Shown here in pieces: positions 1 to 7,706 of a stretch of 64,000 nt of DNA (position 1 is the stretch's first letter; each line of letters starts with the position of its first letter). The position numbers were made by a program, and so were the translations under genes. The notes under the pieces are model-generated. The model ran no database searches. It was not told the origin of the DNA and saw nothing but the letters and a program-made list of their open reading frames with translations. Source of the stretch: Escherichia coli (GTDB taxonomy: Bacteria; Pseudomonadota; Gammaproteobacteria; Enterobacterales; Enterobacteriaceae); assembly GCF_003334385.1 (NCBI RefSeq), contig NZ_QOWN01000002.1. One strand, 5' to 3'.

Positions 1-1
1 G

Positions 2-1027
2 ACCAATAATTATCTCGGTTTAACCTTTAATCATGATGCCATCAGCGAAGGTCAGGCCGCGTTAGCGGCCCAAGGTACCGGCACCACCGGTTCTCGTATG
101 GCAAACGGCAGTTATGCGCCGCACCTGGCGTTAGAGAAAGAGATTGCCGAGTTTTTCAATCGCCCTACCGCTATCGTTTTTTCAACCGGTTATACCGCTA
201 ATTTAGGCGTCATCAGCGCACTTGCCGACCATAACGCCGTGGTGTTACTGGATGCCGACAGCCACGCCAGTATTTATGACGCCTGTTCTCTCGGTGGCGC
301 GGAAATTATTCGTTTCCGCCATAACGATGCTAAAGATCTGGAACGGCGCATGGTTCGCCTCGGTGAACGGGCGAAAGAGGCGATTATCATCGTTGAGGGT
401 ATCTACAGCATGCTCGGTGACGTTGCGCCGTTAGCGGAAATTGTTGATATCAAACGTCGTCTCGGTGGTTATTTGATTGTCGATGAAGCGCATTCGTTTG
501 GCGTGTTAGGCGCAACGGGGCGCGGACTGGCTGAAGCTGTCGGCGTTGAAGATGATGTGGATATTATCGTTGGCACCTTCAGTAAAAGTCTGGCCTCGAT
601 TGGCGGTTTTGCTGTCGGTTCGGAAGCGATGGAAGTGCTGCGCTACGGCAGCCGCCCGTATATTTTTACCGCCTCTCCTTCTCCGTCCTGCATTGCGACC
701 GTGCGCTCGTCGTTAAGAACTATTGCCACACAACCAGAGCTGCGGCAAAAGCTGATGGATAATGCCAACCATCTGTATGGCGGTCTGCAAAAACTGGGTT
801 ATGAGTTAAGTTCACATATTAGCCCGGTAGTGCCGGTAATAATCGGTTCGAAAGAGGACGGTTTACGCATCTGGCGCGAGCTTATTTCGCTGGGCGTTTA
901 TGTGAATCTTATCCTGCCACCTGCCGCGCCTGCAGGCATCACGCTGCTGCGCTGTAGCGTAAACGCTGCTCACAGTCGTGAGCAAATCGATGCCATCATT
1001 CAGGCATTTGCTACTCTGAAGCAGTAA
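2..1027 (+). CDS. alpha-oxoamine synthase family PLP enzyme (BioF/Kbl/serine-palmitoyltransferase-like); 5' end lies outside the window
   Basis: The frame is open from nt 2 (TNNYLGLTFNHD...GTTGSRMANGSY), so the ATG at 98 is internal. Family motifs present: NNYLGL, DEAHSFGVLG and GTFSKSLASIGGF (putative PLP-lysine codon 584-586). Stop at 1025-1027. Confidence 0.85.
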   Translation, partial: TNNYLGLTFNHDAISEGQAALAAQGTGTTGSRMANGSYAPHLALEKEIAEFFNRPTAIVFSTGYTANLGVISALADHNAVVLLDADSHASIYDACSLGGAEIIRFRHNDAKDLERRMVRLGERAKEAIIIVEGIYSMLGDVAPLAEIVDIKRRLGGYLIVDEAHSFGVLGATGRGLAEAVGVEDDVDIIVGTFSKSLASIGGFAVGSEAMEVLRYGSRPYIFTASPSPSCIATVRSSLRTIATQPELRQKLMDNANHLYGGLQKLGYELSSHISPVVPVIIGSKEDGLRIWRELISLGVYVNLILPPAAPAGITLLRCSVNAAHSREQIDAIIQAFATLKQ

Positions 1028-1033
1028 TGTGAG

Positions 1034-1060
1034 CCCGCCGTGGTGTTGCGCCACGGCGGG
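1034..1060. terminator. GC-rich hairpin between convergent genes
   Basis: cccgccgtgg (1034-1043) and ccacggcggg (1051-1060) form a perfect 10-bp stem followed by ttt. It sits between the stop codons at 1027 (+) and 1062 (-). Confidence 0.6.
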
Positions 1061-1061
1061 T

Positions 1062-2141
1062 TTAATGTTGTCTGTCATACCAATACACCAGGCTCAACGC
1101 CACCAGCACAAACGCTATCGGTAAACCGAGCGCGGTAACAGGTGCGCTCAACGCAAATAGCAATCCCAGATTGACCATGATTTGATAGCTGATCCAGGTG
1201 AGTAAGCCAACGATGACACCTACAGCGAGACGGCTACCCATCCCTGGCGAGCGCGGGGCGCTAAAGGTAAACGGCACAGCCAGCAAAATCATCGCCAGGG
1301 TCAGGATGGGTTGCCCCAGTTTTTCCCACAGTGCAAGGCGGTATTCGCTGCTGGGTTGCCCGGTTTCCTGCAAATAATGGATGTAATGATTAAGCTGACG
1401 GACAGAAAAAGTATTGCCCGGCATTGATAACTCTTCAAGATCCATACTGGTGAAGGCCGATTGCCAGGCAAGATTATCTAATGTTTCCAGCGTTTCTTTG
1501 CCATTCAGCCATTTTTTATGATTCACACCATGCAGGATCCACGTTTTGTCGTCTTCAATGGTGGCACTGCGTGCATAAATGTAGGATTCGAGCGAGAGAT
1601 CGTCGCGATAATGAAAAATCTCCACGCCCACCGGCTGGCCCTGCTCGTTCAGCGATTTCACCGTCACAAATTCATTACCACGCCTGGCCCACAGCATATT
1701 GCCGGTAATGTCATCGTCCTCCCCCAACGCGGTGGCGGTCGATTTGATTTGCAACGCCTGTTGCTGTAATGGCGACGCTACCCACTCATCTATCGCGCCT
1801 AACGAAACAGTCCACAATATCCCTGCAACCAGCGCCACCAGTGCAATACGGAAGATAGAAAACCCCATGCTGCGAATGGCGGTAAGCTCACTGTTTTTCG
1901 ATAACTGCCCCAGGCCGACAATCCCTCCCAATAAGGCGATAAATGGCGAAAGTTCGACCAGTGTGCGCGGTAAGGTCATTAGCACCACCAGCACCGCCTG
2001 AGTCCAGCGATAACCGCCCGGGCTGACATCATCCAGTTCGTTAATCAGGTTGAAGGTGGTAAAAAGCGGCAGCAATAGCCCTGCGGCGGCGGCAAAACCG
2101 AGAAAGAGATGACGGATTAAATAGCGGCTGAAAACATTCAT
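1062..2141 (-). CDS. LptG-like permease (YjgP/YjgQ family), accessory paralogue
   Basis: ORF 1062..2222. The internal ATG at 2141 gives MNVFSRYLIRHLFLGF..., a typical YjgP/YjgQ N-terminus, and makes an ATGA start/stop overlap with the upstream gene (2138-2141). Multiple hydrophobic segments flank a central soluble domain (WARRGNEFVTVKSL...WILHGV). Confidence 0.8.
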   Translation of the reverse strand: MNVFSRYLIRHLFLGFAAAAGLLLPLFTTFNLINELDDVSPGGYRWTQAVLVVLMTLPRTLVELSPFIALLGGIVGLGQLSKNSELTAIRSMGFSIFRIALVALVAGILWTVSLGAIDEWVASPLQQQALQIKSTATALGEDDDITGNMLWARRGNEFVTVKSLNEQGQPVGVEIFHYRDDLSLESYIYARSATIEDDKTWILHGVNHKKWLNGKETLETLDNLAWQSAFTSMDLEELSMPGNTFSVRQLNHYIHYLQETGQPSSEYRLALWEKLGQPILTLAMILLAVPFTFSAPRSPGMGSRLAVGVIVGLLTWISYQIMVNLGLLFALSAPVTALGLPIAFVLVALSLVYWYDRQH

Positions 2142-3208
2142 CGGGAAAATTTCTGCAGCAAAGAGAAGTCGCGTGCGACCAGCATCAGCAGGCCCATTAG
2201 CATGAGTCCGGGTACTAACCACAAACCAGGAATGAGGGGAATCGCGCCGTTAGCCACCAGCGTACGGCAGACGTCACCGCCATAAAAAATGGCAATAAAC
2301 AGCAACGTCAGTGGCAATAACGTTGAAAATCGCCCTTGCCGCGGTTTTACCCGACTTAATGAAATGGCCAGCAGCGCCATCAACAATGCGGTCAGGCCAC
2401 GGCTTTGCCGCCATTGCAGTTCGGCATGATCGGCTGGAAAGACGGAGCGCGCCAGCTCCGTGACCGATTTCGCTTTGCGTTTGACGTTAGGGCTTTGATC
2501 CAGCGGATTCAGATGTAATTGCAGATTACGGTAGATCTGTTCGTTGTCATCACGCCCCTGATGATCGATAAGATAGGCAGTGCCGTTGTGCAACATAACG
2601 GTCGGTTTCTCGGGTGATGGGTCAACCACATCAACCGAACGGGCGCGGAAAATGCGGGTTCGATTGGCAGTAGAAGTATAAATCAGCGCGTCAGTCAGGC
2701 GATTATTATCCTGATCAACCGTCTGCGAAAGGATCATTCGTCCGTTATCGTTAGTGTTAAATTTCTTTGCCCGCAACTGGCGAACATCCAGCTCCGACTG
2801 CGACTGCTGCTCCAGTTGATAAATCTGCGCATAAGCCCACGGACGACCATACATCGACAGAAGGGTGACAAAAATACTTAGCGGTATCGCCAGATAAAGA
2901 ACGGCTTTGTACAAGCGTCCCGGACTGCCCCCCGCCGCAGAGATAGCGGTAATTTCCGAGTCGGTATACATCTGCCCTAGCGTCACGCCAACTGACACAT
3001 ACAGACCAACAGGTAACAACATCTCCAGTGCAATCAGTACTTTGTAGAAAACGATATCCAGCACAACATCAAGAGCTAATGTCCCATTTGCCGCTTCGGT
3101 CAGATAACGCTGTGCGGAGTAGCTGGCGAAAATAAAGATCAGAAAACCGACGATAATCAGCACCAGACGGCGCGTACCACGCATGATGTAGTGTTCAACC
3201 AGCTTCAT
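2138..3208 (-). CDS. LptF-like permease (YjgP/YjgQ family), accessory paralogue
   Basis: 356-aa ORF with ATG at 3206-3208. The N-terminus MKLVEHYIMRGTRRLVLIIVGFLIFIF and the topology (3 TM, soluble domain, 3 TM) resemble LptF/LptG. It is translationally coupled to the next gene. Confidence 0.8.
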   Translation of the reverse strand: MKLVEHYIMRGTRRLVLIIVGFLIFIFASYSAQRYLTEAANGTLALDVVLDIVFYKVLIALEMLLPVGLYVSVGVTLGQMYTDSEITAISAAGGSPGRLYKAVLYLAIPLSIFVTLLSMYGRPWAYAQIYQLEQQSQSELDVRQLRAKKFNTNDNGRMILSQTVDQDNNRLTDALIYTSTANRTRIFRARSVDVVDPSPEKPTVMLHNGTAYLIDHQGRDDNEQIYRNLQLHLNPLDQSPNVKRKAKSVTELARSVFPADHAELQWRQSRGLTALLMALLAISLSRVKPRQGRFSTLLPLTLLFIAIFYGGDVCRTLVANGAIPLIPGLWLVPGLMLMGLLMLVARDFSLLQKFSR

Positions 3209-3238
3209 CTCACTAACGCCCTCAATCCTTTGAGTTTT

Positions 3239-3802
3239 TTATTCATTGATCAGTTTCTGCGCCAACGCAATGACATGATCTACCTCTTCCGGCGTCAGGC
3301 TGCCGTCCTTTGCCCACTGAATTTGCCCGGCTTTATTCAGCACCAGAATGGTTGAACTCTGCTCCGGCAAGCGCCAGGCAACGCGTCCCTGTCCATTGCC
3401 GTCAATAACGAATTGCGCCCACGGATAGCGGCGTTTATTTTTTTCGATTTTGCCAACAACAAAATAGCCAGTACCAAAGATGGCATCATCGGTGTTCACA
3501 ATGGTGGTGGGCTGAAAACGATCCTGCGGAAAGTTTGCCGCTTCAACCGCTTTAATTAACAGTGAGTTCTTTTTCTTCGCCGACTTACGCCCGGCGATAT
3601 ACTGAATAATGCGGACTTTTCCCGCTAATTGTGTGCTGTTCCACTTTTGGTAGTGAATTTCGTCGTCGCTATTCAGAAGCAGCTCGCCGCCTTCCTGGAT
3701 ATAAACAGGGGTAACCGTTTTGCCAGTGACGAAATTGTGTGCCTGCACACCCGGGGCTAAGAGCATGATAATCAACGCAATAATCAAACGAGATGACATC
3801 AT
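3239..3802 (-). CDS. YtfJ/HI0045-family periplasmic protein (signal peptide)
   Basis: 187-aa ORF. The N-terminal signal-like sequence is MMSSRLIIALIIMLLAPGVQA-HN. A GGAG Shine-Dalgarno lies upstream of the ATGATG start. Similarity to E. coli YtfJ is recognised by eye, not by search. Confidence 0.65.
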   Translation of the reverse strand: MMSSRLIIALIIMLLAPGVQAHNFVTGKTVTPVYIQEGGELLLNSDDEIHYQKWNSTQLAGKVRIIQYIAGRKSAKKKNSLLIKAVEAANFPQDRFQPTTIVNTDDAIFGTGYFVVGKIEKNKRRYPWAQFVIDGNGQGRVAWRLPEQSSTILVLNKAGQIQWAKDGSLTPEEVDHVIALAQKLINE

Positions 3803-3810
3803 TGCTCCGG

Positions 3811-4635
3811 CTATAGCGGAAAACGCGAAATCAGCAGCTCTAAGCGCTGACGAATATCGCTATCCAGCGCCACCGGTGCATCATACGACTGGCGGTTTTC
3901 CATATCATCCGCCACCATGTCGTCGTGTTTATCTCCCATCAGGCCATTAATGGCGGCGAGGAAGCGGGATATCTGTAACGCCTCTTTATTTTCAGGATCA
4001 AGCGATCTTAAGGTGTCGTAATAAGAAACCTGCTGGCTGATGATTTTTCGCACATCATGAAATTCCCTACCGGTTAGTCGCGGTTTGGCAATAATCTCTT
4101 TCAGGGTATGCATTTGCTTTTGCCGATAGGCAATAAAACTGCTTACGCTTTCTAACTGGCTATGGCGTAATGAATAGTTCACCAACGACCAGACCGGAGA
4201 GCTTAAATAAATCCGTAACAGGTTGCCGTAATACGACACAATATTTTTCTTACCGTTACGAAAGCCGTCCTGAAAACGCCCCAGAAAAACGGTCGTTTTG
4301 CCGAATAAAAATCCGGCCTGATGCTTCTTTAAATACAGCCGTTGCGCAAAACGCAGGTGCTTGTAGCGCGCTCGCATGTATTTAAATTGTTTGCGCTCAT
4401 CAGCAGTCAGCTCATCGCCTTTGGCTTGTTTGCGAACTAAACGCAGTAACTCCTGACGATCAACGCCATTGAGCCAGAATTGCAGGCATAACGCGTAATT
4501 ATCATGAATGATTTCGGTGGTACAACTTAGTGCAATAGTCGGCGGCAAACTAACCTGTGCATCAACGACATCATCTTCTTCAATCGCAACAAATAGACGC
4601 TCGCTCGCCTCAAGCGGGAAATATTTTCTCATCAT
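3811..4635 (-). CDS. hypothetical cytoplasmic protein (274 aa), no family recognised
   Basis: Long ORF in an operon context. Its ATG overlaps the yghQ stop by 1 nt (TGATGATG at about 4630-4637). No TM segment or signal peptide is visible. Confidence 0.7.
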   Translation of the reverse strand: MMRKYFPLEASERLFVAIEEDDVVDAQVSLPPTIALSCTTEIIHDNYALCLQFWLNGVDRQELLRLVRKQAKGDELTADERKQFKYMRARYKHLRFAQRLYLKKHQAGFLFGKTTVFLGRFQDGFRNGKKNIVSYYGNLLRIYLSSPVWSLVNYSLRHSQLESVSSFIAYRQKQMHTLKEIIAKPRLTGREFHDVRKIISQQVSYYDTLRSLDPENKEALQISRFLAAINGLMGDKHDDMVADDMENRQSYDAPVALDSDIRQRLELLISRFPL

Positions 4636-5984
4636 CAGGATTTCTCTCCGGCTGCGTTATAAAGCAAGGAATGGCGCTGAAAAAATGCCTTTAAGGTTGG
4701 AATTAACGAGAGCGCCACGTCCAGACATTGCCCACCGAAGTAAGCAAACGCTGCTCCCAGCACACCAAACAGATGACAGAACATGAACAGCAATACGATG
4801 TAGCCGATTGAGGCGATGGTTTGCGCCACGAGAAAAGCGCGCTGTTTTCCCGCCATCAATAGCAATGACTCCTGAGGGAAGCCCAGCATCGAAATCACAA
4901 TTGCGCCCAGCATCACCTGAATCAGGTCATACGCTTCGAGATACTTAACGCCAAACACCAGCGAAATGAGCGGCTTGCCGACGATCAACACCGCGAGCGC
5001 CACCAGAATACCGATTCCGCCCGCCAGTAAACCGGACTTCACACCTAACAACCACGGTCTGGTGGTGCGCGGATCTAAACGCATCACCTCTGGGTAAAAA
5101 CTTTTACCCAGCAAACCCGCTGGCGTTCCGGCGGCGTCGAAGAATGTCATGGCGATTTTAAATAACCCGGCGGCAGCGGGTCCTAACACGATCCCCACCA
5201 ACACTGTGCTGCACGAGTTACGCGCCGACCAGATGGAGTGGGCAATGTTGGTTGACCAGACAAAACTCCACGCGCCTTTAATGTATCGGGCAGACTCAAA
5301 CAGATTCAATTTGAAGGCGTTATGGATATTTCGGCGGCGTAATTCGCGCGCGGCAAACCACCAGTACATGGTGCCGCCAACCAGATTCGACACGTACCAG
5401 GCAATAACAAAACCCGCAAAACCAAAGTCAAAATACCAGGCTACGACGCTCCCCGCTGCGCGCAGAAAAGGTTTCGTCGCCTGCTGTACAGCAATTAAAT
5501 CGAAGCGATCTACCGCACGCAGAATGCCGGTCGGCGTGGAGGAAGCCATTGAAGGAATGAGCGTGCAATAGAGCGCTGCCAGCCAAAAACTTTGGTCATC
5601 CAGACCTAATGAATGGGAAAGGAATGGCAGTAAGGCAATGCCACCGACAATCGCCACCGCGCCGCTGACGATATCCAGCGAGAAGGAAAATGAGACGACA
5701 TTGCGGAATTGCTGCGGATTATTGTTGGTTAATGCTGGTGTTCCGTACTGAACCACCAGTTGCCATGTCTGAAACTTAATAAAATCGCTGATCGACTTGG
5801 CGTACGATTGCACAATCACCAGTACGCCAAACATGGCGGGCGTCATCCCTTTACCGGCACACGAGAGCGCCAACAGACCCAGCAAGGCGCTCACGACATT
5901 ACTGGAGCCTAACCAGGCGCTATTGCGAATAATGGTGCGAAACGCGCCATCTGCAAACCAATGTTTGATGTTAAAACCCGCCAA
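4635..5984 (-). CDS. yghQ: inner-membrane MOP/PST-type (Wzx-like) flippase family protein YghQ, full length
   Basis: 449-aa polytopic membrane ORF whose C-terminal part I recognise as K-12 YghQ. The first codon at 5982-5984 is TTG, with AGG about 6 nt upstream. Confidence 0.8.
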   Translation of the reverse strand: MAGFNIKHWFADGAFRTIIRNSAWLGSSNVVSALLGLLALSCAGKGMTPAMFGVLVIVQSYAKSISDFIKFQTWQLVVQYGTPALTNNNPQQFRNVVSFSFSLDIVSGAVAIVGGIALLPFLSHSLGLDDQSFWLAALYCTLIPSMASSTPTGILRAVDRFDLIAVQQATKPFLRAAGSVVAWYFDFGFAGFVIAWYVSNLVGGTMYWWFAARELRRRNIHNAFKLNLFESARYIKGAWSFVWSTNIAHSIWSARNSCSTVLVGIVLGPAAAGLFKIAMTFFDAAGTPAGLLGKSFYPEVMRLDPRTTRPWLLGVKSGLLAGGIGILVALAVLIVGKPLISLVFGVKYLEAYDLIQVMLGAIVISMLGFPQESLLLMAGKQRAFLVAQTIASIGYIVLLFMFCHLFGVLGAAFAYFGGQCLDVALSLIPTLKAFFQRHSLLYNAAGEKS

Positions 5985-6029
5985 TTCAGCCTGACCTTAT
6001 CGTTGATAGTAAAAAGTATCCCGCCAGCC

Positions 6030-6788
6030 TTAAGTTAAACTTCGGCGGTCAGAAACGATGGCAACCAGAGAAACCGCCTTCTGTGCCTGTTCCAGCACTT
6101 CGCTGTAGGGCGCTCTGGAATCAATCTCAAGAATTTTTGTGCCGTTATAGCCAATCTTCGACATGACACCGATTTTGTCCTGCAGCTCGGCATAGTCATG
6201 GTCAGGCTTGCGGGAGATGGCAGTCTCAATATCAATGCCCAGGCGAATAATTAATTCCGGGCGATATTGCGCCATTTGTTGGTATAAACGCCGTTCGCGC
6301 TGCGCCAGAAACATGCTGATTTTCCCGGTCGCACGTTCGACGCCAATCCCCGGTCCATCATAATAAAAGCCCGAAATTTCAGCCTGCGGGAAGCGATCGC
6401 TGACCACCAGAACGCCACTTTGCGCCAGTCGCTGAACCTTGCGTAGATTCGCCATTCTTCGCAGCGAGAAGCAGTACATAATCACCGCCGCCCATAGCGC
6501 CGGAGATTTGGTTTTCATGCTTTGGGTTTTCGAGGATTTGGCCGCCAGTCGCCGTTCCAGCCAGACGCCAACCAACGGCAATCGTTTGATTTTGTCGCCG
6601 TCTTCGCCGGAGAGCAGCCCCAGATAGCGCCGCTCGGTTTGCCAGTGTTGTTGCAGCGATTTCACCAGGTCGGTGGTCAGTGTGGATTTACCGGTGCCAT
6701 CACACCCGACCACCGCAATCAGCCCCGGAATGTAGTTGGGCTGCGGCGCGGTTGTACTATTAACAGTTTGAGTTTGTAGTGCATCCAT
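6030..6788 (-). CDS. yghR: P-loop NTP-binding protein YghR
   Basis: 252 aa. Walker A VGCDGTGKSTL, then SDRFPQ and SRKPDH motifs. Paralogous to the next two genes. Confidence 0.9.
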   Translation of the reverse strand: MDALQTQTVNSTTAPQPNYIPGLIAVVGCDGTGKSTLTTDLVKSLQQHWQTERRYLGLLSGEDGDKIKRLPLVGVWLERRLAAKSSKTQSMKTKSPALWAAVIMYCFSLRRMANLRKVQRLAQSGVLVVSDRFPQAEISGFYYDGPGIGVERATGKISMFLAQRERRLYQQMAQYRPELIIRLGIDIETAISRKPDHDYAELQDKIGVMSKIGYNGTKILEIDSRAPYSEVLEQAQKAVSLVAIVSDRRSLT

Positions 6789-6819
6789 TCGTTAAATCAT
6801 CCCCTATCCATTTTGGTGA

Positions 6820-7533
6820 TCAGGAAAGCGCGGCGTGAATTGCGCGTAGTGACGCTTGCAGAATTTCATCGGCGGGGTGTCGCCCATCCAGTTCAAGGAT
6901 CTTTGCGCCATTGAATGTCAGTTGCGGCGTAACGGCGATTTTTTCCTGTAACGCTGCCAGTTGGTGGTCAGGTTTACGCGCAAACGCGGTTTGTTCATCA
7001 ATGCCAAGACGAATCAACAATACGGGCAAATAAGATGCCATCCATTGGTACAGCTTCAGCTCGCGCTGCCTTAACATTTTTATCCAACCGTTACCGCCCG
7101 TGGTTTTTGCCAATTGCGGGCCATCAAAGCGAAACCCCGGCACTTCAACCTGCGGGTAGCGGTCGGTGATGAGCAGAAAGCCTTGCTGGCTTTTACACAA
7201 CATTTTGCGAAACTTGTACGCCCGCCAGCAGGAAAGCAGATAGATAACCAGTGCAGTAATATTGCCAGGCGGTGTTGAGGGCTTTTCGTGCACATGTGCC
7301 GCTTTACTTCGCAGATAACGCCCAAAAGGTGCGCCAATAACAGGGAGCTGTGAAATCCATTCGCCAATTCGCCCGGACGATTGCCCGAGATAAATGTGTT
7401 CTGTTGGCATTCTTGCTGCCAGTTCATTTACCAGGCTTGCCGTGAGGGTCGATTTACCTGAACCATCACATCCTACAATGGCAATAACACGCACTGGCGT
7501 GGAATTAATTATTGACATATTACGTTGATTCAC
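6820..7533 (-). CDS. yghS: P-loop NTP-binding protein YghS
   Basis: 237 aa with a GTG start at 7531-7533. Walker A VGCDGSGKSTL, then TDRYPQ and ARKPDH motifs. Confidence 0.9.
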   Translation of the reverse strand: MNQRNMSIINSTPVRVIAIVGCDGSGKSTLTASLVNELAARMPTEHIYLGQSSGRIGEWISQLPVIGAPFGRYLRSKAAHVHEKPSTPPGNITALVIYLLSCWRAYKFRKMLCKSQQGFLLITDRYPQVEVPGFRFDGPQLAKTTGGNGWIKMLRQRELKLYQWMASYLPVLLIRLGIDEQTAFARKPDHQLAALQEKIAVTPQLTFNGAKILELDGRHPADEILQASLRAIHAALS

Positions 7534-7706
7534 GAAAAACCCGGCAGTAAATAATGTATTGAATATTACGTGGTCCGTGCTCAGAATATCCGTTCAACCT
7601 TATTGTGACAATGGTTAATTGTGACATTGACCTGAATTACGCTTTCATAAAAACATATTAACCAAATAAATATTTTTAATGGATATTTAAATTAAAGGAT
7701 ATATTC

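What the first reader, a model, noticed from the sequence alone, without database searches (positions are those of the whole stretch)
1062..3208. Second LptF/LptG-like permease pair with no cognate ABC ATPase visible
Two adjacent YjgP/YjgQ-type genes of about 356-359 aa are translationally coupled (ATGA at 2138-2141). In the essential Lpt machine, LptF and LptG need the LptB ATPase dimer. No ORF in nt 1-8400 shows an ABC signature (Walker A plus LSGGQ). The only nucleotide-binding candidates nearby are the non-ABC P-loop proteins YghR/S/T. Either this pair borrows LptB, or its ATPase lies outside the window, or it is energised differently. Its cargo is presumably not LPS.
Basis: partly seen in the sequence, partly recalled or inferred. 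Interest (0 to 1): 0.6.

Follow-up and report, generated by a model that had tools for sequence, protein, structure and literature searches.

The report
Sphingolipid-locus LptF2/LptG2 permease pair
This is the second LptF/LptG-type membrane permease pair that most E. coli strains (but not K-12) carry inside their sphingolipid-synthesis gene cluster; it probably exports that lipid by borrowing the LPS-transport ATPase LptB, as recently shown for Caulobacter, so the finding is real but already explained.

Summary
Two overlapping minus-strand genes (2138-3208, 356 aa; 1062-2141, 359 aa; ATGA at 2138-2141) are full-length LptF-type and LptG-type permeases. They are about 28-29% identical to E. coli's own LptF and LptG. 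No ABC ATPase is encoded in the 64-kb window or in the 15 kb upstream.

The missing ATPase is not an anomaly. Canonical lptFG lies 1.14 Mb from lptB.

The window starts inside spt (serine palmitoyltransferase). Upstream lie acpR, cerR, aasR and yghO (bCerS), which are the five ceramide-synthesis genes. In 80 genomes of Enterobacterales, Pseudomonas and Azotobacter, the pair is adjacent 80/80 times and spt lies within 10 kb 75/80 times. None of these loci has a stand-alone ATPase gene.

The glutamates of the coupling helices, which canonical LptF/LptG need to hold LptB, are kept in F2 and G2.

This kind of pair has been published. LptF2/LptG2 were proposed in Caulobacter in 2024. A 2026 preprint showed that they co-purify with the sole LptB and cannot be deleted while anionic sphingolipid is made. 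Its Figure 2B shows the E. coli UTI89 sphingolipid operons alongside those of Caulobacter.

What remains untested is E. coli itself: its lipid product, and the LptB partnership. Verdict: already known, low to moderate interest.

The parts
2138..3208 (-). lptF2: LptF-type permease of the sphingolipid locus (356 aa)
   Evidence: - PF03739, E = 7e-54.
- TIGR04407 (LptF) scores 318 bits against a cut-off of 230, versus 65 bits on the LptG model.
- 29% identical to E. coli LptF (E = 3e-22); E = 0.1 against LptG.
- Matches PDB LptF chains at E = 4e-32 over residues 7-343.
- The coupling-helix residue E85 aligns with LptF E84 and is kept in 80/80 sequences of the orthologue alignment, the E. coli protein included.
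1062..2141 (-). lptG2: LptG-type permease of the sphingolipid locus (359 aa). Its ATG at 2141 overlaps the lptF2 stop (ATGA at 2138-2141).
   Evidence: - PF03739, E = 9.5e-70.
- TIGR04408 (LptG) scores 308 bits against a cut-off of 240.
- 28% identical to E. coli LptG over 350 residues (E = 2e-38); E = 0.049 against LptF.
- Matches PDB LptG chains at E = 5e-42.
- The AlphaFold2 model (mean pLDDT 61) has six long helices and a beta-jellyroll at residues 150-227. The best Foldseek hits are LptG chains, with TM-scores of 0.55-0.70.
- E85 aligns with LptG E88 and is kept in 99% of the orthologue column.
1..1027 (+). 3' part of spt (serine palmitoyltransferase), cut by the start of the window and convergent with lptG2
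   Evidence: - PF00155, E = 9e-49.
- RefSeq annotates the gene as spt; the full gene is L001 14855-16027.
- The E. coli BL21 orthologue, co-expressed with AcpR and AasR, makes 3-oxo-sphinganine (PMC9386255).
1030..1064 (.). Hairpin with a 16-pair stem between the convergent spt and lptG2 genes; probably a two-way terminator
   Evidence: It is the top terminator-like site in the scan of 1-8500. The sequence was also read directly. This is a pattern match only.
3239..3802 (-). YtfJ-family periplasmic protein, 30 nt upstream of lptF2 in the same transcription direction
   Evidence: - PF09695, E = 1.7e-59; TIGR01626 scores 212 bits.
- Present in 56/80 related loci.
- No relative in the PDB by sequence.
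- Function unknown.
3811..4635 (-). Conserved hypothetical protein (274 aa) between yghQ and the ytfJ-like gene
   Evidence: - No Pfam, NCBIfam or PDB match.
- Present in 56/80 related loci, always alongside the YtfJ-like gene and next to YghQ wherever YghQ falls inside the fetched flank.
4635..5984 (-). yghQ: MOP/Wzx-type flippase-like membrane protein (449 aa), the candidate flippase for the lipid
   Evidence: - PF01943, E = 7e-11, and PF13440.
- Truncated by IS5 in K-12.
- Absent from the Pseudomonas-type loci. 16 of the loci that lack it carry a fused ABC_membrane+ABC_tran exporter of about 575 aa instead.
6030..7533 (-). yghR (6030-6788) and yghS (6820-7533): P-loop proteins at the head of the probable operon yghS-yghR-yghQ-hyp-ytfJ-like-lptF2-lptG2
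   Evidence: - They have Walker A motifs only and no ABC signature.
- Their matches to dTMP kinase are weak and below the cut-off.
- Gaps between successive genes are 45 nt or less.
- The operon is inferred from spacing and was not shown.
7707..8399 (+). yghT: third P-loop paralogue, divergent from yghS
   Evidence: It travels with yghR/S in 44/80 loci.

Best explanation
The pair is the E. coli version of 'LptF2/LptG2': a second, accessory set of transmembrane subunits of an LptB2FG-type (type VI) ABC extractor, encoded inside the sphingolipid-synthesis cluster.

**Proposed mechanism**
1. AasR, AcpR, Spt, CerR and YghO (bCerS) make a (dihydro)ceramide at the cytoplasmic face of the inner membrane. 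Unknown enzymes of the operon may add a head group.
2. A flippase moves the lipid to the outer leaflet. In Enterobacterales this would be the MOP-type YghQ. In Pseudomonas-type loci it would be an MsbA-like fused ABC exporter.
3. An LptF2-LptG2 heterodimer docks through its coupling helices onto a dimer of the cell's single LptB ATPase. ATP binding and hydrolysis then expel the lipid from the inner membrane towards the outer membrane, probably through the shared LptC/A/DE bridge.

**Shown here**
- Family membership and the F versus G assignment.
- Conserved coupling-helix glutamates.
- Conserved linkage to the ceramide genes.
- Absence of any dedicated stand-alone ATPase in the locus.
- A single full-length lptB in every E. 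coli genome.

**Shown by others**
- E. coli Spt, AcpR and AasR make 3-oxo-sphinganine.
- Caulobacter LptF2/G2 bind each other and LptB, and can be deleted only when spt or cpgB is deleted.

**Inferred**
- E. coli F2G2 use LptB.
- The cargo is the locus's sphingolipid.
- YghQ is the flippase.
- The route across the periplasm.
For: 1. **Family and assignment.** F2 is LptF-type and G2 is LptG-type over their full lengths, and each passes the NCBIfam equivalog cut-off for its own model. The G2 model has the LptG fold.
2. **Same layout as the canonical pair.** Gene order is F then G with overlapping stop and start, as in canonical lptFG. The canonical pair is also not next to lptB.
3. **Coupling helices.** F2 E85 aligns with LptF E84 (80/80 sequences). 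G2 E85 aligns with LptG E88 (99% of the column). The flanking G93 is invariant in both. Simpson et al. [quoted passage not shown]
4. **No dedicated ATPase.**
   - There is no ABC domain in the window or in the 15 kb upstream.
   - None of the 80 related loci has a stand-alone ATPase inside or beside the cluster.
   - All 5426 complete E. coli genomes have one full-length lptB, and the extra hit shown is a short match to another ABC gene.
5. **Context.**
   - F2-G2 are adjacent in 80/80 loci.
   - Spt and the ACP are within 10 kb in 75/80, and the ligase and reductase in 77/80.
   - Within E. coli the pair occurs in 4132 genomes and the aasR-spt operon in 4153 of 5426 genomes, so the counts nearly coincide.
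6. **Literature.**
   - PMC11324152.
   - bioRxiv 10.64898/2026.04.12.717747. LptF2 and LptG2 co-purify with each other and with the sole LptB. They can be deleted only in a delta-spt or delta-cpgB background. [quoted passage not shown]
   - PMC9386255 for the E. coli enzymes.
Against: - **No direct evidence in E. coli.** There is no interaction, transport or lipid-product data in the searched library.
- **Distance from the studied proteins.** The gammaproteobacterial proteins are distant from the Caulobacter proteins that were studied. The published BLAST gives 24% identity between the Caulobacter and A. vinelandii homologues.
  - None of the ten nearest representatives whose sources I looked up carried an alphaproteobacterial name.
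  - The two 'F2G2' groups may therefore be separate lineages. Orthology was not tested.
- **The glutamate is not specific.** It is nearly invariant across the whole LptG family. Its presence shows a working NBD interface but does not identify LptB as the partner.
- **No second LptC.** E. coli has no LptC2, and no LptC or LptA homologue was found in the window or in the 80 loci. The periplasmic step is open.
- **Weak model.** The G2 model is poor in the membrane domain (pLDDT 33-50 for residues 1-150). No complex could be modelled with these tools.
Confidence: 0.7

Rival explanations
1. The pair has its own ATPase partner encoded elsewhere in the genome (an orphan ABC nucleotide-binding protein other than LptB), so it forms a fully separate transporter.
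For: - ABC subunits need not be linked. Canonical lptFG and lptB are 1.14 Mb apart.
- The DNA-level search for lptB duplicates would miss a paralogue below about 65-70% nucleotide identity.
Against: - No stand-alone ATPase is linked to the pair in any of 80 loci from three orders. The small ABC hits lie 5-9 kb outside the cluster and in different places in different genomes.
- The only experimental case (Caulobacter) found no second lptB in the genome and a physical interaction with LptB.
- From my own knowledge, LptB is the only ATPase known to pair with this permease fold.
Confidence: 0.12
2. The pair is a redundant or specialised exporter of LPS or lipid A (for example for a modified LPS form), as its RefSeq names lptF and lptG imply.
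For: - Both proteins pass the NCBIfam LptF and LptG equivalog cut-offs, and PGAP names them accordingly.
- Several LPS-contact positions are kept: LptF R33 as R34 (80/80), LptF K317 as R315, LptG K62 as R59, and LptG R136 as K133.
Against: - The pair is tightly linked to ceramide-synthesis genes and not to LPS genes.
- It is dispensable. It is absent from K-12 and gives no match in 24% of complete E. coli genomes, whereas canonical lptFG is in all 5426.
- It appears to be lost together with the spt operon.
- In G2 the lipid-A phosphate and core contacts K34, K40 and K41 are N, D and D. K34E is lethal in LptG (PMC6744409). This last point is weak, because those positions vary across the family.
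Confidence: 0.05
3. The neighbouring P-loop proteins YghR/S/T energise the permease pair in place of an ABC ATPase.
For: - They are the only nucleotide-binding proteins in 1-8400.
- They lie in the same probable operon.
- They co-occur with the pair in 50/80 loci.
Against: - They have no ABC signature or ABC fold match. Their only matches are weak and to dTMP-kinase-like P-loop kinases.
- No YghR/S/T homologue was found within the fetched flanks in 30/80 loci that keep F2G2.
- F2 and G2 keep the coupling-helix motif that fits the groove of an ABC nucleotide-binding domain.
- A small-molecule or lipid kinase role in head-group chemistry is more plausible.
Confidence: 0.03
4. The pair is a decaying or silent remnant in E. 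coli with no current transport role.
For: - No native E. coli sphingolipid has been reported in the searched literature.
- The whole block is lost without obvious cost in K-12.
Against: - Both ORFs are intact.
- The pair matches at 95% nucleotide identity or more in nearly all of the 4132 E. coli genomes that carry it.
- The proteins are 46-75% identical across Enterobacterales and Pseudomonadales, with functional residues kept.
- The E. coli Spt, AcpR and AasR enzymes are active when expressed.
Confidence: 0.05

Closest known systems
Caulobacter crescentus LptF2/LptG2 (CCNA_01214/CCNA_01213 = CC_1156/CC_1155), the sphingolipid-locus paralogues of LptF/LptG (PMC11324152; bioRxiv 10.64898/2026.04.12.717747)
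   Same: - It is a second F/G pair alongside the canonical one.
- It is encoded among spt, acpR, aasR, cerR and bCerS.
- There is no lptB copy in the locus.
- A flippase-like gene lies in the same cluster.
- The preprint's Figure 2B presents the E. coli UTI89 sphingolipid operons beside those of Caulobacter. Its text says lptF2 and lptG2 occur in many sphingolipid loci of alpha- and gammaproteobacteria.
   Different: - Sequence relationship is distant (24% identity between the Caulobacter and Azotobacter homologues), and orthology is untested.
- E. coli has no LptC2.
- The E. coli cluster shows no counterparts of cpgA, cpgB or cpgC (the ceramide-phosphoglycerate genes) among its annotated genes; this was not searched with the Caulobacter sequences.
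- E. coli instead carries YghQ, a 274-aa unknown protein, a YtfJ-family protein and three P-loop proteins, so the head group and final cargo are probably different.
- The interaction with LptB and the spt-dependent lethality have been shown only in Caulobacter.
E. coli LptB2FGC, the canonical LPS extractor (PDB 6MHU, 6MI7, 6S8H and others)
   Same: - Same Pfam and NCBIfam families.
- Same F-then-G order with overlapping genes.
- Same topology, with a periplasmic beta-jellyroll.
- Same coupling-helix glutamates.
- The ATPase gene is unlinked.
   Different: - Only 28-29% identity.
- Accessory rather than essential.
- Embedded in a ceramide cluster rather than standing alone.
- The LptG contacts K34, K40, K41 and R133 are replaced by N, D, D and L.
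Pseudomonas/Azotobacter-type sphingolipid loci (for example A. vinelandii Avin_44240-44370, PMC11324152 S2E)
   Same: They carry F2 and G2 orthologues (46-59% identity to the E. coli G2) next to yghO/bCerS and the aasR-cerR-acpR-spt operon.
   Different: - YghQ, the 274-aa protein and the YtfJ-like protein are absent.
- In 16 loci a fused ABC exporter of about 575 aa (ABC_membrane+ABC_tran) follows spt.
- A. vinelandii has cpgABC homologues next to the pair.

Membership tests
LptF/LptG permease family (Pfam PF03739; NCBIfam TIGR04407 LptF, TIGR04408 LptG) | Full-length match to the family profile above the curated cut-off, with each protein preferring one of the two subfamily models | tested here: met
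   - PF03739: E = 7e-54 and 9.5e-70 over 352 of 353 profile positions.
- F2: 318 bits on the LptF model (cut-off 230) versus 65 bits on the LptG model.
- G2: 308 bits on the LptG model (cut-off 240) versus 87 bits on the LptF model.
LptF/LptG permease family (Pfam PF03739; NCBIfam TIGR04407 LptF, TIGR04408 LptG) | Six transmembrane helices with a periplasmic beta-jellyroll between TM3 and TM4 | tested here: met
   - G2 model: helices at 3-36, 59-82, 96-139, 265-293, 301-329 and 333-358, and strands at 150-227 (jellyroll pLDDT 84-92; membrane part low).
- The Foldseek top ten hits are all LptG chains.
- F2 was not modelled. It aligns to solved LptF chains over residues 7-343.
LptF/LptG permease family (Pfam PF03739; NCBIfam TIGR04407 LptF, TIGR04408 LptG) | Conserved glutamate in the cytoplasmic coupling helix between TM2 and TM3 (LptF E84, LptG E88) | tested here: met
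   F2 E85 and G2 E85 align with these residues. They are kept in 80/80 sequences for F2 and in 99% of the column for G2. Their role is described in PMC5082905.
LptF/LptG permease family (Pfam PF03739; NCBIfam TIGR04407 LptF, TIGR04408 LptG) | Functional equivalence: extraction of LPS (the meaning of the 'equivalog' name that RefSeq gives) | not testable with these tools
   - Context argues against it. The pair is linked to ceramide genes and is dispensable in E. coli.
- The changes at LPS-contact residues are only weak evidence, because those positions vary family-wide.
Sphingolipid-locus LptF2/LptG2 (as defined in Caulobacter) | Encoded within or next to the sphingolipid-synthesis genes (spt, acpR, aasR, cerR, bCerS) | tested here: met
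   - The window starts inside spt, and yghO, aasR, cerR and acpR lie upstream.
- Spt is within 10 kb in 75/80 related loci.
- YghO is listed as the bCerS-type N-acyltransferase in PMC9386255.
Sphingolipid-locus LptF2/LptG2 (as defined in Caulobacter) | A second pair that coexists with canonical lptFG in the same genome | tested here: met
   Canonical lptFG is found in 5426/5426 complete E. coli genomes. The second pair is found in 4132 of them.
Sphingolipid-locus LptF2/LptG2 (as defined in Caulobacter) | No dedicated LptB-type ATPase in the locus or genome | tested here: met
   - Locus: none in the window, none upstream, and none as a stand-alone gene in 80 loci.
- Genome: one full-length lptB per E. 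coli genome at the DNA level. A distant paralogue would not be seen by that search.
Sphingolipid-locus LptF2/LptG2 (as defined in Caulobacter) | Physical complex F2-G2-LptB, and deletion tolerated only when sphingolipid synthesis is off | not testable with these tools
   These were shown only for Caulobacter. No multimer modelling or experiment was available here.
Sphingolipid-locus LptF2/LptG2 (as defined in Caulobacter) | Common descent with the Caulobacter proteins, separate from canonical LptF/LptG | not tested
   - Caulobacter sequences could not be fetched with these tools.
- The published BLAST gives 24% identity between the Caulobacter and A. vinelandii homologues.
- The G2 clade found here contains gamma- and betaproteobacteria only.
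Self-contained ABC transporter operon (permeases plus own ATPase gene) | An ABC nucleotide-binding protein encoded with the permease genes | tested here: not met
   The fused ABC exporter of about 575 aa in Pseudomonas-type loci carries its own membrane domain and stands where the YghQ module sits in Enterobacterales, so it is more likely the flippase.

The most novel reading that the evidence does not exclude
Most wild E. coli strains, and many Enterobacterales, make and export to their outer membrane a sphingolipid that has not yet been identified.
- Its head group would differ from Caulobacter's ceramide phosphoglycerate. It would be built or handled by the uncharacterised YghR/S/T P-loop proteins, the 274-aa protein and the YtfJ-family protein.
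- LptF2G2 would compete with LptFG for the single LptB pool. Sphingolipid and LPS export would then be coupled in the best-studied bacterium, a feature that went unnoticed because K-12 lost the block to an IS5-associated deletion.
Probability: 0.3. Interest if true: 0.6.

Novelty: already known. Interest (0 to 1): 0.3.

Why it matters
- It explains why three quarters of E. coli genomes carry two genes named lptF and two named lptG, and it warns that the RefSeq names overstate the function.
- If the Caulobacter model holds in E. coli, a single ATPase (LptB) serves two lipid export routes. LptB2FG is a current antibiotic target, so this bears on that work and on how outer-membrane composition is balanced.
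- The practical gap is in E. coli itself: the native lipid, its expression conditions and its export have not been described. E. coli is a far easier system for such work than Caulobacter.

Tried and rejected
1. **Cargo from cavity residues.** Relative to E. coli LptG, G2 has N, D and D at the lipid-A contacts K34, K40 and K41. I first read this as strong evidence against LPS as cargo. A control on 141 full-length family representatives showed that acidic residues at those positions are common across LptG in general. I therefore downgraded it to weak evidence.
2. **Fused ABC protein as the missing ATPase.** The ABC hits next to spt in Pseudomonas-type loci looked at first like the missing ATPase. 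They are proteins of about 575 aa with their own ABC_membrane domain. They are therefore complete MsbA-like exporters and not LptB-like subunits.
3. **YghR/S/T as homologues of the Caulobacter ceramide kinase CpgB.** Rejected. CpgB has an LCB5/DAG-kinase domain, whereas YghR/S/T are P-loop proteins.
4. **Orthology with Caulobacter F2/G2.** I could not obtain the Caulobacter sequences. The exhaustive representative search plus a neighbour-joining tree reached only gamma- and betaproteobacterial members. The tool for genomic context does not accept those representatives.
5. **Structure.** The G2 model from a 16-sequence alignment is poor in the membrane domain (pLDDT 61 overall). It is enough to recognise the fold and not enough for interface analysis. 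A complex with LptB cannot be modelled with the tool provided.
6. **Neighbours.** PDB sequence searches for the YtfJ-like protein, the 274-aa protein and YghR gave nothing.
7. **Literature.** Searches for a native E. coli sphingolipid, or for the BL21 locus tags of the two permeases, found nothing.
Full report
**1. The observation**

The two genes exist as described. On the minus strand, an ORF of 356 aa runs from 3208 to 2138. A second runs from the ATG at 2141 to 1062 and encodes 359 aa. The mechanical ORF list extends it to a GTG at 2222. RefSeq uses the ATG at 2141, and the 359-aa form is the one found across homologues. The + strand reads tcat at 2138-2141, so the two genes overlap as ATGA. 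Both match Pfam PF03739 (LptF_LptG) end to end, with E = 7e-54 and 9.5e-70.

The claim about missing ATPases also holds. The only Walker A motifs in the six-frame translation of 1-8400 belong to YghR, YghS and YghT. No LSGGQ-type signature occurs there. A phmmer search with E. coli LptB finds no ABC nucleotide-binding domain in the entire 64-kb window.

**2. Where this is**

The first 8.4 kb are 100% identical to many E. coli chromosomes, for example NCTC86. The annotated region around the NCTC86 match has this order:
- glcC
- yghO (minus strand)
- a fatty acyl-AMP ligase, an NAD-dependent epimerase/dehydratase, an acyl carrier protein and spt (plus strand)
- then, convergently on the minus strand: 'lptG', 'lptF', a YtfJ-family protein, a hypothetical protein, the 'lipopolysaccharide biosynthesis protein' YghQ, YghR and YghS
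- then yghT (plus strand) and pitB

The window starts inside spt. The ORF at 98-1027 is the 3' part of that gene.

In K-12 an IS5 element replaces everything from the ligase gene to the YtfJ-like gene and truncates yghO and yghQ. That is why this pair is absent from the reference strain.

**3. What the two proteins are**

| Test | F2 (2138-3208) | G2 (1062-2141) |
|---|---|---|
| BLASTP vs E. coli LptF | 29% identity, E = 3e-22 | E = 0.049 |
| BLASTP vs E. coli LptG | E = 0.1 | 28% identity over 350 residues, E = 2e-38 |
| NCBIfam LptF model TIGR04407 (cut-off 230 bits) | 318 bits (real LptF scores 385) | 87 bits |
| NCBIfam LptG model TIGR04408 (cut-off 240 bits) | 65 bits | 308 bits (real LptG scores 456) |
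| Best PDB match by sequence | LptF chains, 4e-32 | LptG chains, 5e-42 |

So F2 is an LptF and G2 is an LptG.

An AlphaFold2 model of G2 from a 16-sequence alignment has only moderate confidence (mean pLDDT 61). The membrane part is poor and the jellyroll is good. It shows six long helices and a beta-sandwich at residues 150-227. Its ten best Foldseek matches in the PDB are all LptG chains, with TM-scores of 0.55-0.70.

Gene order (F then G) and the overlap of stop and start copy the canonical lptFG operon.

**4. The ATPase question**

The absence of a neighbouring ATPase is normal for this family in E. coli. Canonical lptFG lies at 4.486 Mb and lptB at 3.344 Mb of the K-12 chromosome.

I fetched 80 loci encoding G2 relatives (46-98% identity) from Enterobacterales, Pseudomonas, Azotobacter and relatives. 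I then labelled their ORFs with phmmer, using the E. coli cluster proteins and LptB, LptC and LptA as queries.
- F2 sits directly upstream of G2 in 80/80 loci.
- No locus has a stand-alone ABC ATPase inside or next to the cluster.
- Small ABC hits occur only 5-9 kb outside the cluster, in five loci and in unrelated positions.
- Sixteen Pseudomonas-type loci have an ABC protein immediately after spt. It is a protein of about 575 aa with its own ABC_membrane domain plus ABC_tran, that is, a complete MsbA-like exporter. It occurs in loci that lack YghQ, the 274-aa protein and the YtfJ-like protein. I read it as an alternative flippase and not as a partner of F2G2.

Across 5426 complete E. coli genomes:
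- Every genome has one full-length lptB. The one extra hit shown is a short match to another ABC gene.
- Every genome has canonical lptFG.
- 4132 genomes (76%) have the second pair.

**5. Can the pair dock on LptB?**

Simpson et al. [quoted passage not shown] In the four-way alignment the motif S-E-[IL]-[TV]-x-x-x-x-x-G is shared by all four proteins.
- F2 E85 aligns with LptF E84 and is present in 80/80 sequences of the alignment (79 orthologues plus the E. coli protein).
- G2 E85 aligns with LptG E88 and is present in 99% of that column.
- The glycine that closes the helix is invariant in both.
- Other functionally important positions are also kept. For LptF, Y80, A90 and G92 are Y81, A91 and G93 in F2. 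For LptG, L83, L89 and G96 are L80, L86 and G93 in G2.

There is a caveat. The glutamate is almost invariant across 141 diverse family representatives. It shows that an ABC-type interface is maintained, but it does not show which ATPase is bound.

**6. The cargo**

Context gives the answer.
- Spt and the ACP lie within 10 kb of the pair in 75/80 loci.
- The ligase and the reductase lie within 10 kb in 77/80 loci.
- YghO lies within 10 kb in 60/80 loci. Several of the rest are cut by the 10-kb flank.
- Within E. coli the aasR-cerR-acpR-spt operon is found in 4153 genomes and the pair in 4132. This fits gain and loss as one block. These are counts only, not a per-genome table.

Published work on the same E. 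coli locus (strain BL21) supports this. AcpR carries phosphopantetheine. Co-expression of E. coli AasR, AcpR and Spt yields 3-oxo-sphinganine. ECD_02852 and yghO (ECD_02850) are listed as the reductase and the N-acyltransferase for dihydroceramide (PMC9386255).

I also mapped the LPS contacts seen in the cryo-EM structure (PMC6744409) onto F2 and G2.
- LptG K34, K40, K41 and R133 become N31, D37, D38 and L130.
- LptG K62 and R136, and LptF R33 and K317, stay basic.
- K34E is lethal in LptG.

The control showed that acidic residues at the K40 and K41 positions are common in LptG proteins generally. This is therefore only weak support for a non-LPS cargo.

**7. What is already published**

- Olea-Ozuna and co-workers (PMC11324152) described 'second versions' of LptC, LptF and LptG in the Caulobacter sphingolipid region. 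These are LptC2, LptF2 and LptG2, and a flippase-like gene lies with them. They proposed that these proteins move phosphosphingolipids to the outer membrane.
- Uchendu, Isom and Klein (bioRxiv 10.64898/2026.04.12.717747) then reported four results:
  - lptF2, lptG2 and lptC2 can be deleted only when spt or cpgB is deleted.
  - LptF2 and LptG2 co-purify.
  - Both co-purify with the sole LptB.
  - No second lptB exists in that genome.
[quoted passage not shown] The text states that lptF2 and lptG2 occur in many sphingolipid loci of alpha- and gammaproteobacteria, while lptC2 appears restricted to Caulobacter.
- I found no paper in the searched library with experiments on the E. coli permease pair or on a native E. 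coli sphingolipid.

**8. Most likely mechanism**

1. Ceramide is made at the inner face of the inner membrane by AasR, AcpR, Spt, CerR and YghO.
2. It is flipped by YghQ, or by the MsbA-like exporter in Pseudomonas-type loci.
3. An LptF2-LptG2 heterodimer mounted on an LptB dimer extracts it from the outer leaflet. It then hands the lipid to a periplasmic route, probably the shared LptC/A/DE bridge.

Evidence status:
- **Shown here:** family, fold, subunit assignment, interface residues, conserved linkage, no dedicated ATPase, and a single lptB.
- **Shown by others:** the enzyme activities of the E. coli biosynthetic proteins, and the LptB partnership and genetics in Caulobacter.
- **Inferred:** all transport steps in E. 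coli.

I put 0.7 on this explanation as a whole.

**9. Rivals**

- An unlinked dedicated ATPase (0.12).
- A redundant LPS exporter (0.05).
- Energising by YghR/S/T (0.03).
- A silent remnant (0.05).

The reasons for and against each are given in the rival entries.

The main weakness of the favoured model is the distance between the gammaproteobacterial pair and the Caulobacter pair. The published BLAST gives 24% identity between the Caulobacter and A. vinelandii homologues. My representative search and tree found the G2 clade only in gamma- and betaproteobacteria, for example Methyloversatilis. Common origin of the two 'second pairs' remains untested.

**10. Verdict**

The missing neighbouring ATPase is not an anomaly. 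The locus is a known sphingolipid cluster, and this kind of pair has been described and tested in another species, in a paper that also figures the E. coli locus. I rate it as already known, with interest 0.3.

The open and more interesting part is specific to E. coli:
- the identity of the lipid;
- the roles of the uncharacterised YghR/S/T, the 274-aa protein and the YtfJ-like protein;
- whether two permease pairs really share one LptB pool.

Noticed in passing
window 3811-4635 (-): A 274-aa protein has no Pfam, NCBIfam or PDB-sequence match. It sits between YghQ and the YtfJ-like gene in 56/80 related loci. It disappears together with them in Pseudomonas-type loci, 16 of which carry a fused ABC exporter instead.
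   Followed up: partly
window 3239-3802 (-): A YtfJ-family protein with an apparent N-terminal signal sequence and no cysteines lies 30 nt upstream of lptF2. It is conserved in 56/80 loci. It could be a periplasmic component of the pathway. No solved relative was found.
   Followed up: partly
window 6030-8399: YghR, YghS and YghT are three paralogous P-loop proteins. RefSeq names YghS and YghT 'dTMP kinase', although they score 24-32 bits against a cut-off of 83 on that model. They are unrelated to the Caulobacter ceramide kinase CpgB, which has an LCB5/DAG-kinase domain.
   Followed up: partly
window 1062-3208; RefSeq records such as NZ_CP019778.1: PGAP names the second pair lptF and lptG ('LPS export ABC transporter permease') because both pass the equivalog cut-offs. 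About 76% of complete E. coli genomes therefore carry two genes with each name. This is probably an over-specific annotation.
   Followed up: yes
L004 (K-12 MG1655, 3130146-3131340) versus window about 1-4900: In K-12 an IS5 element replaces the ligase, reductase, ACP, spt, lptG2, lptF2, ytfJ-like and 274-aa genes. It also truncates yghO and yghQ. This explains why the cluster is missing from the reference strain.
   Followed up: yes
window 1030-1064: A hairpin with a 16-pair, GC-rich stem lies exactly between the stop codons of the convergent spt and lptG2 genes. It is probably a two-way terminator.
   Followed up: no
L047, L050, L052, L059-L066, L069, L071, L073, L082, L084 (about 600-2400 in each locus): In Pseudomonas/Azotobacter-type loci an MsbA-like fused ABC exporter of about 575 aa follows spt, often with a YghR-like P-loop gene after it. 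It takes the place of the YghQ module of Enterobacterales.
   Followed up: partly
protein P0019: A 456-aa E. coli protein is annotated as GspC. It carries a T2SS GspC N-terminal domain fused to the last 72% of LptG2 at 100% identity. It probably results from a deletion joining gspC to lptG2 in some strains.
   Followed up: no
L048 (E. coli ECMA0423, CP178302.1): Every gene of the cluster in this record is broken into several ORFs, and the best segment is only 65% identical. It looks like an error-rich assembly rather than real decay.
   Followed up: no
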